Below, piece after piece: positions 21,588 through 57,446 of a stretch of DNA of 64,000 bases (position 1 is its first letter; every line of letters begins with the position of its first letter). The notes under the pieces were generated by a model that made no database searches, was not told the origin of the DNA, and was given only the letters and a program-made list of their open reading frames with translations. The stretch is taken from IMG/VR virus record IMGVR_UViG_3300037156_000269, positions 32,626-96,625 of that record. The stretch is one strand, 5' to 3'. The position numbers were made by a program, and so were the translations under genes. Source of the DNA: a virus (lineage: Duplodnaviria > Heunggongvirae > Uroviricota > Caudoviricetes).

Positions 21588-23294
21588 ATGAGTAATTCAG
21601 AACAAGAAGAGATGTTGGATGAGCTAGGGTCGGCGAATCCATATGAAGCCAATGCTGCGGCTCAAAAAAGAGCCGTCTACGATCAGAAGGCTGCCCGCGG
21701 TTTATCAGAGGCCACGAAAACTTTGATAAAAGCTTTGAAGACAAAGTGGGTTAGCACTCTAATTTATCTTGATGGAAAGCAGTTTAGTTTCGCCGGGCGG
21801 AATTATTTGTATCCAATTTACAACGGGTTCTACCCACGCAAGATTTTAAAGTTCGCGCGTCAGTCAGAGAAGTCTACTTTTCTCGCGAACGACATGATCG
21901 TGAACTGTGCAGTGACCCCTTATACGAAGTCCATCTACATCGCGCCATCGCACTCGCAAGTAAGACAGTACTCAAACGGCAAGTTGAAACCCTGGACCAC
22001 AGACTCTCCCATCTTAAAAAAGTTCTTCCTCTCCACCAGTGTCAGTGATCAGGTTTTTGAAAAAGGTTTCACCAACGGCTCGATGATGTTTTTGAGGTCG
22101 GCTTTTTTGAATGCCGATCGTGTGCGGGGGCTAAGCGGGACTGAACTCTATCTGGATGAGCTACAGAATATTTTATCCTCTAATATCCCTGTTATTTTAG
22201 AAGTCTTGTCCCATGCCGAGAGTCCGCAGGTGACCTACTCTGGTACGCCTCTCACAAATGACAATCCTATTGAGTCGATGTGGGCTAAATCATCGCAGTG
22301 TGAATGGCTGGTCCCGTGTACACGGCACTCACCAACTCACTGGAATTATTTAGACACGCGCAATATCGGTAAGACGGGTCCTATCTGTAACAAATGCGGC
22401 AAGGGAATTAATCCTGCTTTCGGAAAGTGGTTTAAGCTTTCGGCCCAAGACGATATCATGGGGTTCCACATATCTCAGCTCATGGTTCCGTGGATGCAGT
22501 CCCCTACAAAGTGGAAAGAACTTCTGTTTAAGTATGAGACTTACTCCACAGGTCAGTTTGCAAATGAGGTTTTGGGGGTCAGTTATGACTCAGCCTCTAA
22601 GCCGGTCACGCGCACCGATCTTATCGCCTGCTGCTCATCGAAACATCCATTCAGAAAATCACCAGACAACTACACAAATTCACTTACTTTGTTTGCAGGG
22701 GTTGATTGGGGGGAGGGTGTGGATGGCTCTGAAATAGGAGTTAAGGGCAGACTAAAAAATGCCAGTTACACAGTTCTTACCATCGGTGCTTACATCACTC
22801 CAAAAATCTTCCATGTGTTCTACATGAAACGCTACACCGGTGAAGAAGCTATGCCTGGTAATTGTGTTCGTGACATCATCCAGATCTGTAAACAAATGGG
22901 TGTTGCCTGCATGGGCGTAGATTGGGGCCATGGCTGGGGTGTGAACGAGCAGCTCGAGCTTGCTTTTGATAAGCCAGGCCACAAACGAGTGGTTAAGTTT
23001 CAGTATGTTGGGATGCAGAAGGAACGTAAAAAGTATGATGGCATAGGTGTAAAGTACCAGCTCAATCGTACAGAAGTCATGACAGATTTCTTTGAGGATT
23101 TAAAGCGACAGCGGTATCTCTTTCCGGACTGGGAAACCATGAAATCATTTCTTATGGACATCGAGCACATTCATGCGGAATACGCGACAAGCGGCACGCT
23201 CAAGTACGATCACAGAACGTCGGAACCTGACGATGCGGCTCACTCAATTATTTTGTGTCGCGAGGCTGCGGATAACTATTACGGGAAGCAGTAG
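21588..23294 (+). CDS. terL: Terminase large subunit
   Basis: ATPase motifs FARQSEKST and LYLDELQN, SGTP coupling motif; RNase H-like nuclease FAGVDWG..DDAAHS. Confidence 0.9.
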   Translation: MSNSEQEEMLDELGSANPYEANAAAQKRAVYDQKAARGLSEATKTLIKALKTKWVSTLIYLDGKQFSFAGRNYLYPIYNGFYPRKILKFARQSEKSTFLANDMIVNCAVTPYTKSIYIAPSHSQVRQYSNGKLKPWTTDSPILKKFFLSTSVSDQVFEKGFTNGSMMFLRSAFLNADRVRGLSGTELYLDELQNILSSNIPVILEVLSHAESPQVTYSGTPLTNDNPIESMWAKSSQCEWLVPCTRHSPTHWNYLDTRNIGKTGPICNKCGKGINPAFGKWFKLSAQDDIMGFHISQLMVPWMQSPTKWKELLFKYETYSTGQFANEVLGVSYDSASKPVTRTDLIACCSSKHPFRKSPDNYTNSLTLFAGVDWGEGVDGSEIGVKGRLKNASYTVLTIGAYITPKIFHVFYMKRYTGEEAMPGNCVRDIIQICKQMGVACMGVDWGHGWGVNEQLELAFDKPGHKRVVKFQYVGMQKERKKYDGIGVKYQLNRTEVMTDFFEDLKRQRYLFPDWETMKSFLMDIEHIHAEYATSGTLKYDHRTSEPDDAAHSIILCREAADNYYGKQ

Positions 23295-23296
23295 GT

Positions 23297-23330
23297 AAAA
23301 AAAACCCACCCCTTTTTACGGGGGTGGGTT
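23297..23330. terminator. Terminator closing the periodic array (minus strand), possibly bidirectional
   Basis: aacccacccc / ggggtgggtt 10-bp stem; T8 follows on the minus strand. Confidence 0.8.
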
Positions 23331-24260
23331 GCCGCAGAACGTCACTGCGCAACACTATGCCCATGCTTTACAGCACGTCACCCTGCTCTGCAAAAGCCCA
23401 ACAATGCGACACTGCACCGTGACGAAGCTTCACGATAATTCACACTGCCATGCCGCTGCAGAACCATACTTGACCCCACCTCATCATGCCAATGCTTCAC
23501 TCGGATTCAACAAAACTGCGCCTCATTTTACCGTGACGAGGCTTCACTAAGCCGCAGCTCACCTTGCCAACACTTCACGTTGCTGTGCTACACCTTGACA
23601 TCACTTCACCGTAGCTCACCTTGCCAAAACAAAACAGGACCCAACGGCGCCTTACCAACGCGAACCTAGACCAAGCTTTACGATACCGCCGCACAACACT
23701 ACTCCACTTTACTGCTGCTATTCTAGACCGTACATTGCCAACGCTAAACCGCACGCCACCTCATCATGCCCATGCCATGCTAGACGCTGCTTCACCTTAC
23801 CCATGCACTACCTGACCTAACTAAACTATGCTGGTACGAGGCCATACTCCACCTCACTCCACAACAACAGCACAATACTCGGCCGTACTAAAACAATGCT
23901 GAACTGAACCTTACCACTGCTTTACAGCACCTATGCATTACCTAACGTCACCTCACCCTACCAATACCGATCTGGACTATGCAGAACTCTGCTATGCCGA
24001 TGCCTTGCGAAACCATGCCACACCTCGCTATTGCATGAGACCGCCACACAGAACCACTGCTCAGCATCACCTCGCCTCACCATACCAACGCGTTACCGGG
24101 CTTAACCACGCAGACACTTTGCAGAGCCTTACAACACCGATGCCTGACTTTACATCACCAATGTGATACTCTAGACTACTTTACCATTACAGACCTGTAC
24201 GACACTCCGCCTCGCCTCGCCACGACCGTACATTGCTTCACATCACCATTACTTTACAAG
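23331..24260 (-). repeat. Non-coding 5-nt-periodic (NN-NGY)n array, candidate guide-RNA array
   Basis: Minus strand parses as CT TGT AA AGT AAT GGT GA TGT GA AGC AA TGT AC GGT CGT GGC GA GGC GA GGC GG AGT; register persists for ~930 nt. Confidence 0.85.
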
Positions 24261-24266
24261 TTTGGT

Positions 24267-25142
24267 TTATTGGACGGTCGGTTGCTGTTCGGCAGTTGCT
24301 GTCTTTTTACGGAGTGGAATATCGACTTCAGCGTTGATGCACTTAATCTCGCTGGAAAACATACCTCTACCACTATTGCGCCATTGTCCTAACCCATTGA
24401 AATATTGGCCATATTCGAAAATATCGAGAAGGAAATCCTCTGTCAGTTTCGAGTTCTTTAAGACACGCAAATCAAACTCAAACTCTGTTCCGGGTTCAAT
24501 GACTTCAGACTTGGCCAGCGTCACGCGGGGGCCTTGAGCTGTGATCACGCGGAGTGAGCGCTCAAGGAAATAAGGCGTTCCGTCGGCGTTGCGCTTTAGA
24601 TCCTTGTTGGCCACGATGAACGGGTTTACACATCGCACTTGAGTGTTGATGATCTCATGAGTGTAGGTAGCCGATTGGAGGATTGTGCCATTCTTCTTTT
24701 CTCGGACTTGGCACAATGTCTTCGCTGCGGCCTTCATGTATCCGTAGATCATGTGATCTCCGATGCACGGACGGTTTGTTTCTTTATCCCAGAAGAAGAT
24801 TGTCGCACCTTTTAGATCTAGACTCTGGAAGGTTTCTTTCAGCGCTTCGAGTTTACCGGTCAAAGCCATATCGCGCTGCTCAGGAGTGAATGTGTAGCCA
24901 ACGACGGTCTCTAGGCTGTCCACGAGGCGAGACAATTCCTCATCGCCCTTTTCAGCAGAGATTTTCATCTGTCCGAGGTATTTATTGACCGCTGTGTTCA
25001 CGTCACTCTTGTCGAGAATGAGCTCGCGCTGCTTCGAGAGGATGTGAGTGTTGTGGATGTGCGGATCGGACGGGTTGGTTGCAAGCATCTCTCTTAGAAG
25101 AGTGAGCTTGATGTGATACAGATCAAAAATAGTTGCACGCAT
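24267..25142 (-). CDS. Solitary Cas7/RAMP-superfamily protein
   Basis: RAMP-type pattern: N-terminal strand IKLTLL..LAT, helix IGDHMIYGYMKAA, SEVIEPGTEFEFDL, C-terminal Gly-rich loop GLGQWRNSGRGMF. Confidence 0.8.
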   Translation of the reverse strand: MRATIFDLYHIKLTLLREMLATNPSDPHIHNTHILSKQRELILDKSDVNTAVNKYLGQMKISAEKGDEELSRLVDSLETVVGYTFTPEQRDMALTGKLEALKETFQSLDLKGATIFFWDKETNRPCIGDHMIYGYMKAAAKTLCQVREKKNGTILQSATYTHEIINTQVRCVNPFIVANKDLKRNADGTPYFLERSLRVITAQGPRVTLAKSEVIEPGTEFEFDLRVLKNSKLTEDFLLDIFEYGQYFNGLGQWRNSGRGMFSSEIKCINAEVDIPLRKKTATAEQQPTVQ

Positions 25143-25198
25143 GGAAGACTCCTAGCCTTAAAGGCTGTTAAAAGTTGTAACACGATCGTTACAAAACA

Positions 25199-25211
25199 CT
25201 TATAACGGGAA
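25199..25211 (-). promoter_or_regulatory. Class-E promoter motif variant TTCCCGTTATAAG
   Basis: 57 nt upstream of the RAMP gene and downstream of a terminator. Confidence 0.45.
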
Positions 25212-25227
25212 TTGTTTATTTTGTGAC

Positions 25228-25254
25228 AGCTAAAAAGAAGCCCCGAAGGGCTCC
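25228..25254 (-). terminator. Intrinsic terminator with UUCG loop
   Basis: Minus strand GAGCCC-TTCG-GGGCTT then CTTTTTAGCT. Confidence 0.75.
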
Positions 25255-25260
25255 TAAAAA

Positions 25261-25979: not shown

Positions 25980-26846
25980 TTATAACGTCGATACACGGAT
26001 CGGGCCTGAGACAGTGGTGACATCGGATCCAGAAAGGCTGGCGTTACTGAACAGCATCATACCTGTCGCCGAGGCGCCGCTGGCGTGGCAGCTTGAATCG
26101 AAGTACGAGAGGTAGTTTGTACCACCTGCCACATAAGCGTGGGCCTGGAGATAGCCTCCGTTGTAGACCACAATCTCACCCTCCATATAGGACGTGGAGC
26201 CTGCTCCGGCTGGGGCCATGACGTTACCCGTGCAACCTGCGCCGTCGTAGTACATTGTTCCGACGACTCTGATACCGCCAGCAGCCGTGTTGCTATAACT
26301 GATGAGGTGGCCAGATACGGTGTTCAGGAACAAGTTATAGTACTGGGTACCCATGATGAACTGGAGGTTGGGCTGAGCGCTTCCAGTGGAGTCGTGGACG
26401 ACGAGAGCGCTTCCAGCGGCACCGGCTGCTCCAGTCGCTCCTGTTGCGCCGGCGGGGCCTGTTGCTCCTGTGACTCCGGTCGCACCCGTAGCACCGGCTG
26501 CTCCAGTAGGACCAGCGGCGCCGGCTGCTCCGGCCGGGCCGGTAGCGCCTGCGGCACCAGCGGCGCCTGTGGCTCCGGTCGCACCTGTGCTACCGGTTGC
26601 TCCAGCTGCGCCAGCGGGACCTACGAGGCTCATGACGGTAGCGGTTGTTCCATTGCAGGTCATGTCGACGTTGTTGCCGTTTTGAGCGAGGGTACAGCCA
26701 GCATCAGCGAGAACCTGTTGCAGTTTAGAAGGGGCAGTAAGCGCTGGAGTCGCGGCAGTTGAGGAACCACCAGCTCCGCCTCCGGGACAAGCAGTGAGAG
26801 TAAGAGTCGATGAAAGAGCAAGTACAACTGTGTATAATGTTTTCAT
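25980..26846 (-). CDS. Collagen-like lipoprotein
   Basis: Start MKTLY at 26846 with AAGGAG SD; lipobox LTAC (Cys20); 24 consecutive Gly-X-Y triplets; C-terminal beta-rich domain. Confidence 0.8.
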
Positions 26847-26856
26847 ATAAATCTCC

Positions 26857-27060
26857 TTAGTTTGTTTTATTACAAAGATCGTGGAACGCGTAAAACCCGT
26901 TGACCGGGAGTCCGAGAATTGCGACGAGAGTGTTTTCAATACACACTCTTGCCACGTCTGTTTTTTCTATGTAGCTCTGCTCGAATGTCTTATCAGTGGT
27001 TGTGCCGAGGGTGGCACATCCAGAGAGAAAGACGAACGAGCATAAAATAACTTTATTCAT
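26857..27060 (-). CDS. Small lipoprotein
   Basis: [15 protein letters not shown] lipobox; start at 27060. Confidence 0.6.
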
Positions 27061-56072: not shown

Positions 56073-57446
56073 TCAGGCTTCCCATAAGGTCTCAACCTCT
56101 TCTCTTTTACGTCCGTTGTTTAAATATTCCAGAGCTTCCTTAGCTGTCTTCGTTCCAGGCTTCGACCCGAGGATGTAGACTTCCTTCGAACTTGCACATT
56201 TCATTTTCAGATAAGGCCTGGGGCCGGTTTTGTCGTAGTCGATCGTGAGAAGCTCATACTTTCCACCAGTCTTAGTTTTGTAGGTGTCGATGGTTTTCGC
56301 GCCCAGTATCTTTATCGTTCTCTCAAGTCCAATCTTTCGAATGATCTCTCTGCGGACATCTGCATTTGTTTCTTTCATCACCATTTCTTTGGTGATTTTC
56401 TTTGCCGGCGTCTCGGCAATTTCTTTCGGAACAGCCACCCCATTCAGTCGGTACATCGGGTATGTGTCACGATAGAGAAGTGAGGGTCCGCCATCTTTGT
56501 GCAGGCGGCCTTCTATTTCTGTCACGTGAATTTCTTTTGGGAAATCAGAGACGAAGCAGATGTCTTTGAACGGATAGAAGAGGTGCAGCTCTTGGAAATG
56601 AGAAAGAAAGCGTCTGAAGAGACCGAAATCTTTTTCTTTGCCGGGCAAGAGCTCGGTCAGAATGAAATCATAATAGCCGTAATAATTGCCCCAGTGCCAA
56701 ACAGCCGCCGCGTAAGCTGGCGCAAAACATTCTAGCTGCTGGCTGTCGAGCTGGCTGCGGAGCTGGCTGTCGAGCTGGCTGTAGAGCTGGCTGTCGAGCT
56801 GGCTGTCGAGCTGGCTGCGGAGCTGGCTGTAGAGCTGGCTGCGGAGCTGGCTGTCGAGCTGGCTGTAGAGCTGGCTGTCGAGCTGGCTGTCGAGCTGGCT
56901 GCGGAGCTGGCTGTAGAGCTGGCTGTAGAGCTGGCTGTCGAGCTGGCTGTCGAGCTGGCTGTCGAGCTGGCTGCGGAGCTGGCTGTAGAGCTGGCTGTAG
57001 AGCTGGCTGTCGAGCTGGCTGCGGAGCTGGATGCGGAGCTGGCTGTCGAGCTGGCTGTAGAGCTGGCTGTCGAGCTGGCTGTCGAGCTGGCTGTCGAGCT
57101 GGCTGTCGAGCTGGCTGTCGAGCTGGCTGCGGAGCTGGCTGTCGAGCTGGCTGCGGAGCTGGCTGTCGAGCTGGCTGCGGAGCTGGCTGTCGAGCTGGCT
57201 GCGGCTTATTCTCTCATCAAAATTGGAACCTTTAATCAGATTACACGCGAGTTGGCACGCCATTGGGGAGTCGAGAAAAATTATATACTTCGGCTTCTCC
57301 ATTTTTAAAATATCTGTGTACATGAAATCAACCGCTAGTCTGGCCTTTTTCACGTTAATCGTTTTTGTTCTACGCCCAATGTCTAACCATTTCTTGAGAT
57401 AAACTGTAACTTTCTTTTCTTGTTGCGCGGTCATTTTTTCAATCAT
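56073..57446 (-). CDS. DUF6745-like protein with tetrapeptide repeat
   Basis: LDSPMACQLA before the repeat; PFKDICFVSDFP..GRLHKDGGPS..LNGVAVP after it. Confidence 0.72.
   Translation of the reverse strand: MIEKMTAQQEKKVTVYLKKWLDIGRRTKTINVKKARLAVDFMYTDILKMEKPKYIIFLDSPMACQLACNLIKGSNFDERISRSQLDSQLRSQLDSQLRSQLDSQLRSQLDSQLDSQLDSQLDSQLDSQLYSQLDSQLRIQLRSQLDSQLYSQLYSQLRSQLDSQLDSQLDSQLYSQLYSQLRSQLDSQLDSQLYSQLDSQLRSQLYSQLRSQLDSQLDSQLYSQLDSQLRSQLDSQQLECFAPAYAAAVWHWGNYYGYYDFILTELLPGKEKDFGLFRRFLSHFQELHLFYPFKDICFVSDFPKEIHVTEIEGRLHKDGGPSLLYRDTYPMYRLNGVAVPKEIAETPAKKITKEMVMKETNADVRREIIRKIGLERTIKILGAKTIDTYKTKTGGKYELLTIDYDKTGPRPYLKMKCASSKEVYILGSKPGTKTAKEALEYLNNGRKREEVETLWEA
56745..57200 (-). repeat. 38 x 12-bp tandem coding repeat (SQL-D/R/Y)
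   Basis: Unit AGCCAGCTC + GAC/CGC/TAC; one unit has ATC (Ile); counted from the translation. Confidence 0.95.

What the first reader, a model, noticed from the sequence alone, without database searches (positions are those of the whole stretch)
23331..24260. Higher-order punctuation of the periodic array into ~26-31-nt units
SEEN: the 5-nt register shifts by one base at regular intervals. On the plus strand, 6-nt units start at 23768 (gcccat), 23799 (acccat), 23830 (gctggt), 23861 (acaaca) and 23887 (actaaa), giving 31, 31, 31 and 26 nt blocks. Most other blocks are one hexamer plus 4-6 pentamers. INFERENCE: the hexamers mark boundaries or processing sites of individual guides, each with about 5-6 variable dinucleotides.
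Basis: partly seen in the sequence, partly recalled or inferred. Interest (0 to 1): 0.78.

Follow-up and report, generated by a model that had tools for sequence, protein, structure and literature searches.

The report
Phage array of short RNA guides
The one-base shifts cut a phage VIPR guide-RNA array into about 32 short guides; in a related gut prophage such guides match a rival prophage three bases per repeat, without the skipped base of the published code, and the match stops exactly at the shifts.

Summary
Observation confirmed. On the minus strand the tract has 147 pentamers and 32 hexamers, spaced 26-36 nt in 28 of 31 cases, far more evenly than random. It lies directly behind a Cas7-like gene (24267-25142), so this is a VIPR system. 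Each block is one extra base (mostly G) plus 5-7 GY-NNN units. The same layout occurs at 163 homologous loci.

In Megasphaera prophages, blocks decoded as contiguous NNN match one competing prophage family at 8 sites, all on the coding strand (6 strict hits against 0.11 in shuffles). Identity is about 90% inside a block and 27-29% across the hexamer. So the shifts are guide boundaries, and each unit carries three target bases, not two. Decoded blocks are also enriched in Shine-Dalgarno and start motifs.

Not shown: RNA cleavage at the shifts, pairing of the third base, and any target of this window's own guides. Staggered arrays and a YNNNG consensus are mentioned in the VIPR preprint, without decoding or targets in its text. 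This scan noted such modules before (e1-5420121), without targets. Verdict: new variant of a known kind.

The parts
23331..24260 (-). Staggered VIPR guide array, about 179 units in about 32 blocks of the form x(GYNNN)n, n mostly 5-7
23361..24247 (-). The 32 extra bases (block boundaries): 24247, 24221, 24185, 24159, 24138, 24112, 24086, 24055, 24029, 23998, 23962, 23931, 23915, 23889, 23863, 23832, 23801, 23770, 23739, 23713, 23687, 23656, 23625, 23594, 23568, 23532, 23506, 23490, 23454, 23418, 23392, 23361; 24 G, 5 A, 3 T
24267..25142 (-). vipr gene, 291 aa, RAMP/Cas7-like fold with G-loop motif GxGQWRN
23293..23330 (-). Intrinsic terminator-like hairpin plus T run, directly after the last block
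25143..25255 (-). Leader: terminator-like site at 25255-25236 closing the upstream genes, then about 90 nt likely to hold the vipr/array promoter (inferred)
   Evidence: sequence

Best explanation
The tract is the guide array of a phage VIPR system of the staggered kind. SHOWN: it follows a Cas7-like vipr gene; it is cut by one extra base into blocks of 5-7 GY-NNN units; in homologues each block corresponds to one separate 15-21-nt target site, read as contiguous NNN triplets identical to the coding strand of a competing prophage. INFERRED: vipr and the array are one minus-strand transcript ending at the 23330 hairpin. Vipr binds one protomer per 5-nt unit, as in SUSP1. The extra base breaks the register, so filaments stop at each shift and the precursor is cut there (nuclease unknown) into 26-36-nt RNPs of 5-7 protomers, about one helical turn. 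Each RNP pairs with the template strand of double-stranded DNA near promoters, ribosome-binding sites or inside early genes and blocks transcription of rival mobile elements. The third base of each triplet sits where type II has its fixed first G; it either pairs or is kept matched by templated copying.
For: RAMP fold: top hits are Cas7/Csm3, Foldseek E 3e-7, VIA Z 11; C-terminal match to SUSP1 Vipr, hhalign E 1.6e-4. Same architecture in 163 loci, 2376 distinct blocks, mode 5-7 units, extra base G in 85-94%. The last base of one unit and the first variable base of the next show the signature of adjacent DNA bases (chi2 51; TA 0.83, AA 1.14, TT 1.17) while neighbouring pairs do not (chi2 4-5). 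Decoded NNN strings carry sense Shine-Dalgarno motifs 139 vs 92.6+-7.6, SD+start 45 vs 29.8+-4.9, antisense none; window's clade 44 vs 23.9+-3.9 and 19 vs 7.1+-2.5. Megasphaera prophage blocks against 0.5 Mb of one rival prophage family: 6 strict hits vs mean 0.11 (max 3) and 11 relaxed vs 1.49 (max 6) in 551 shuffles, none strict on the other strand; blocks of other loci gave 0, more distant relatives of the target gave 0. Identity by position 92, 91, 88% inside blocks; flanks 27% and 29%. Third-base variants of two guides follow variants of the target. SUSP1 residues that read the first G (H17, D177; 10.64898/2026.04.26.720927) align with T22 and Q253.
Against: The target test rests on one family whose Vipr is only about 30% identical to the window's. 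No target was found for the window's own guides. No RNA ends or strand were observed, and terminator orientation across homologues did not settle the strand. One 22/23-nt match in an Atopobiaceae genome runs across a boundary, and one Megasphaera match extends 4 nt upstream. Deletions between related arrays are often inside blocks; homology ends fall within one unit of a boundary in only 51-55% vs about 34% expected. Position identities come from non-independent pairs chosen on overall identity. The residue mapping to SUSP1 is at 22% identity, and R138 is not kept either.
Confidence: 0.8

Rival explanations
1. Blocks are separate guides, but the RNA is not cut: one long transcript carries a chain of independent Vipr filaments, and the extra base is only a hinge.
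For: Sequence boundaries are all that was shown; no nuclease gene, ribozyme, tail or Rfam match lies in the unit; folding z-score is only -1.2.
Against: The VIPR preprint draws staggered arrays as processed at 1-nt overlaps (fig. S18 legend), though not listed as confirmed. End triplets of blocks are biased in homologues, as a cleavage signal might be.
Confidence: 0.2
2. The working RNA is the opposite strand, and the guides are antisense to mRNA, blocking translation at ribosome-binding sites.
For: All 8 sites match the coding strand; SD and start motifs are enriched only in one orientation; top fold matches are RNA-targeting Csm3/type VII Cas7.
Against: The array lies directly behind vipr in 92 of 116 loci; in the window the terminator is on the vipr strand; SUSP1 guides are the G-rich strand; several sites are intergenic or in tandem repeats, not at gene starts.
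Confidence: 0.12
3. The published one-base-skip code still holds: only two bases per unit pair, and the third merely records the target because guides are copied from it.
For: The third position has the most mismatches (26 vs 17 and 19 of 214); the geometry of 5 RNA nt per 3 DNA nt is unchanged; in SUSP1 the thumb flips out that target base. Compatible with the best explanation on boundaries.
Against: The third base is not much freer than the second among homologous blocks (76 vs 74 vs 60 changes; the Y position 97) and follows target variants; the residues that read the first G are replaced.
Confidence: 0.4
4. The shifts are neutral slippage scars in a degenerate repeat.
For: Arrays do recombine at short internal homologies.
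Against: Spacing far more even than random, only +1 shifts, G bias; conserved in 163 loci; target matches end at the shifts.
Confidence: 0.01

Closest known systems
VIPR staggered arrays (Yoon et al., bioRxiv 10.64898/2026.04.26.720920, figs S17-S18)
   Same: vipr gene plus pentamer array; guides abutting with a 1-nt offset; the YNNNG variant consensus is named in the methods.
   Different: The text gives no block length, no decoding and no targets for these arrays, and does not list them as confirmed by sequencing. I could read legends only, not the figures. Here: 5-7 units per guide, contiguous three-base decoding, natural targets in a homologue.
Type II VIPR of Escherichia phage SUSP1 (10.64898/2026.04.26.720920, .720927, 2026.10.15.759431)
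   Same: RAMP protein with related G-loop and helix 1; 5-nt units; 3 target nt per unit; targets are competing phage elements.
   Different: SUSP1 has 9-16 GGY-NN units per guide, a structured 3' tail, spacers between guides and vap1. Here the first G is variable and informative, guides have 5-7 units, no tail, about 32 per array, no vap in the unit, and a 291-aa protein with a helical insertion of about 70 aa. Type II targets lie on both strands; these were all coding-strand.
Class 1 CRISPR arrays with Cas7/Csm3
   Same: RAMP fold; one precursor holding many short guides.
   Different: No direct repeats, no cas genes nearby; the scaffold bases are interleaved with the guide bases.

Membership tests
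VIPR | Stand-alone RAMP protein with RRM core, thumb and G-loop, no CRISPR array or cas operon | tested here: met
VIPR | Adjacent non-coding pentamer tandem array (GGY/NN or the related NNNGG, YNNNG, NNNNG) | tested here: met
   YNNNG form; definition
VIPR | Viral or proviral location | tested here: met
   G000 is a 175-kb virus record with terminase next door
VIPR | Guides specify DNA of competing mobile elements, 3 target nt per unit | tested here: inconclusive
   met in Megasphaera homologues; no target for the window's own guides
VIPR | Guide RNA is expressed, binds Vipr and silences transcription | not testable with these tools
   only a 195-nt RNA-library contig on vipr
Type II VIPR (SUSP1) | Fixed GGY with 9-16 units per guide | tested here: not met
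   first position G in 48/147 internal units; 5-7 units per block
Type II VIPR (SUSP1) | Structured 3' tail after each guide and a vap gene in the operon | tested here: not met
   blocks abut directly; terminator at 25255-25236 separates vipr from upstream genes
Staggered-array VIPR (fig. S18) | End of one guide marks the start of the next, with a 1-nt offset | tested here: met
   (sequence level only)
Staggered-array VIPR (fig. S18) | Assignment to a numbered type by Vipr phylogeny | not tested
   reference set not held; absence of vap points to type I (inference)
CRISPR-Cas | Direct repeats with spacers and cas genes | tested here: not met
   no such repeats or genes

The most novel reading that the evidence does not exclude
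A large VIPR clade uses a contiguous code: all three variable bases per unit pair with the template strand, and guides of 15-21 nt (about one filament turn) are released from a long precursor by the register shift alone, with no repeat, tail or ribozyme. That would be a bridge between gapped VIPR guides and CRISPR-like arrays, and would imply that guides are written by inserting GY every three bases of a target copy.
Probability: 0.4. Interest if true: 0.88.

Novelty: new variant of a known kind. Interest (0 to 1): 0.72.

Why it matters
VIPR is described as defined by a non-contiguous code with long guides. These data give a parsing rule (split at the extra base, drop GY, join the triplets) that predicts natural targets for an array type that the preprint's text leaves undecoded. 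It makes three open questions testable: whether the skipped base can be read, how multi-guide VIPR arrays are processed, and how guides are acquired. A 26-36-nt guide with a protein that needs no tail would also be a very compact programmable DNA binder, and one transcript carries 30-60 guides.

Tried and rejected
Targets of the window's guides: none in its own 175-kb genome under six decodings, in 3.2 Mb of homologue flanks, or in loci from a 17-mer IMG/VR scan; the host is unknown. Exact IMG/VR scans with gut guides gave 0 hits or chance-level hits. A leuS start match was rejected because the host's own leuS differs. A gut guide matching another phage family's vipr ribosome-binding site was not above random start regions, my follow-up pattern was circular, and no reciprocal targeting appeared. 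Palindrome (operator) enrichment: none. SD in one block with ATG in the next: 57 vs 48.6+-5.4, not significant. -10 elements not enriched. Terminator orientation across homologues: uninformative. Read laying: contigs only, no ends or strand. Pfam, PDB sequence search and Rfam: no match for protein or array. Bulk fetch of a fragmented MAG was abandoned.

Full report
Observation. A parse of the minus strand gives 147 pentamers and 32 hexamers with unit N-G-Y-N-N. Blocks hold 5 (12 times), 6 (11), 7 (5), 3 (2) or 4 (1) units. This is far more even than random placement (variance 1.02 vs 23.3), and the extra base is G in 24 of 32 cases (p=1.6e-5). The natural reading is one extra base followed by (GY-NNN)n, with three variable bases per unit. 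It is the only such tract in the 175-kb phage genome.

Setting. The array starts just after the stop of a 291-aa gene (24267-25142, minus) and ends at a terminator-like hairpin (23330-23303); another terminator lies upstream of the gene. The protein has no Pfam or PDB sequence match, but its model (pLDDT 83) matches Cas7/Csm3 and its C-terminal part aligns with SUSP1 Vipr. This fits VIPR (10.64898/2026.04.26.720920). That preprint names a YNNNG consensus and 'staggered arrays' with 1-nt overlaps, and lists only ribozyme and single-guide arrays as confirmed by sequencing. I could not see its figures.

Conservation. Homologue searches gave 163 loci with the same layout: 2376 distinct blocks, mode 5-7 units, extra base G in 85-94%. 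The SUSP1 guides are separated by tails and spacers instead. The two SUSP1 residues that read the first G (H17, D177; 10.64898/2026.04.26.720927) align with T22, invariant in the close clade, and with Q253, present in 169 of the 175 loci where the motif was found. The alignment is weak (22%) and R138 also differs, so this is indicative only.

Decoding. If GY is dropped and triplets are joined, the junction bases behave like adjacent DNA bases (chi2 51 vs 4-5 for non-adjacent pairs), and the top junction-spanning 5-mers include GGAGG, AGGAG and GAGGT. Sense SD motifs (139 vs 92.6+-7.6) and SD+start (45 vs 29.8+-4.9) exceed unit shuffles; scrambled base orders give weaker excesses and the antisense shows none. 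The window's own clade shows the same (44 vs 23.9; 19 vs 7.1). Relatedness among loci inflates these figures somewhat.

Natural targets in a homologue. One gut family of arrays belongs to Megasphaera prophages. A query of eight decoded blocks against 36 genomes of that genus fetched two prophage loci through one block. Blocks that were not in the query matched the same loci at 19 of 19 nt. I then collected 0.5 Mb of this DUF2800-SSB-PolA prophage family. Strict hits were 6 against a mean of 0.11 in 551 shuffles, and relaxed hits 11 against 1.49, on the coding strand. Four strict hits remain if the discovery block is left out. Blocks from other loci and more distant relatives of the target gave none. 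Eight sites emerge: two upstream of and one inside a sigma-like gene, one in DUF2800 (first 19 of 27 nt only), one in ssb, one upstream of polA, one at the start of the VRR-NUC gene, and one in tandem repeats. Identity inside blocks is 92, 91 and 88% for the three positions; across the hexamer it is 27% upstream and 29% downstream. With sites chosen on the first two bases only, the third base matched 41 of 84 times overall, and 32 of 42 for the pairs at the three recurring sites (that split is post hoc). So a block is a guide, and the third base carries target information.

Counter-evidence. One 22/23-nt match at a hisI start in an Atopobiaceae genome crosses a boundary; it may be chance. Arrays delete through short internal homologies as well as at boundaries. 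The window's own targets were not found, so the transfer rests on shared architecture, shared G-loop and the SD signal.

Mechanism. Shown: architecture, protein fold, block-to-site correspondence in one homologous family. Inferred from SUSP1 structures: one protomer per unit, 5-6 per turn, so a block is about one turn. Inferred: the extra base breaks the filament register and exposes a cut site; the RNPs pair with the template strand and block transcription of rival elements. Open: whether the RNA is cut, which strand is made, and whether the third base pairs or only records copying.

Verdict. It is a VIPR system of the staggered kind, not type II. The parsing rule, short guides, third-base information and natural targets are not in the texts I read. 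An earlier report of this scan saw the modules in a related phage without targets (e1-5420121). New variant of a known kind; interest 0.72.

Noticed in passing
window 25175-25194: Perfect 7-6-7 inverted repeat in the vipr leader; possible operator controlling the unit.
   Followed up: no
window 24267-25142: The window's clade of Vipr (260-307 aa) has a helical insertion of about 70 aa relative to the roughly 200-aa forms.
   Followed up: partly
window 21588-23294: The terminase gene converges on the array and ends right beside the terminator hairpin.
   Followed up: no
window 56738-57201: 12-bp tandem repeat, 38.7 copies.
   Followed up: no
window 25980-26939: Collagen-like Gly-X-Y protein with a signal-like N terminus; similar genes lie near vipr in L001 and L002.
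   Followed up: no
L166:1769-3636; L169:3183-5290: Very long arrays: 364 units with 48 shifts, all G; 407 units with 67 shifts.
   Followed up: no
L006:6141-6674; L243:12751-13107: Second arrays away from the vipr gene; the L243 contig seems to hold two Vipr homologues (P0017, P0047 share the contig length).
   Followed up: no
L215, L226, L337, L344, L351 arrays: Natural deletion series in one gut phage family: some remove whole blocks, others fuse blocks at short internal homologies.
   Followed up: partly
L281 (G002:C66:11260-11282): Two adjacent decoded blocks of L114 match the hisI-like ribosome-binding site and start in the same genome bin at 22/23 nt, across a boundary.
   Followed up: partly
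L430:1914-2211: Five tandem copies of a 15-nt motif, iteron-like, matched 14/15 by one Megasphaera guide.
   Followed up: no
L404:445-3665: The targeted Megasphaera prophage region carries genes of an ABC-three-component type (CTD6 plus ATPase).
   Followed up: no
L109, L129, L130 arrays: Eggerthellaceae arrays keep a run of homologous blocks that have diverged by point changes, suggesting reprogramming in place.
   Followed up: no
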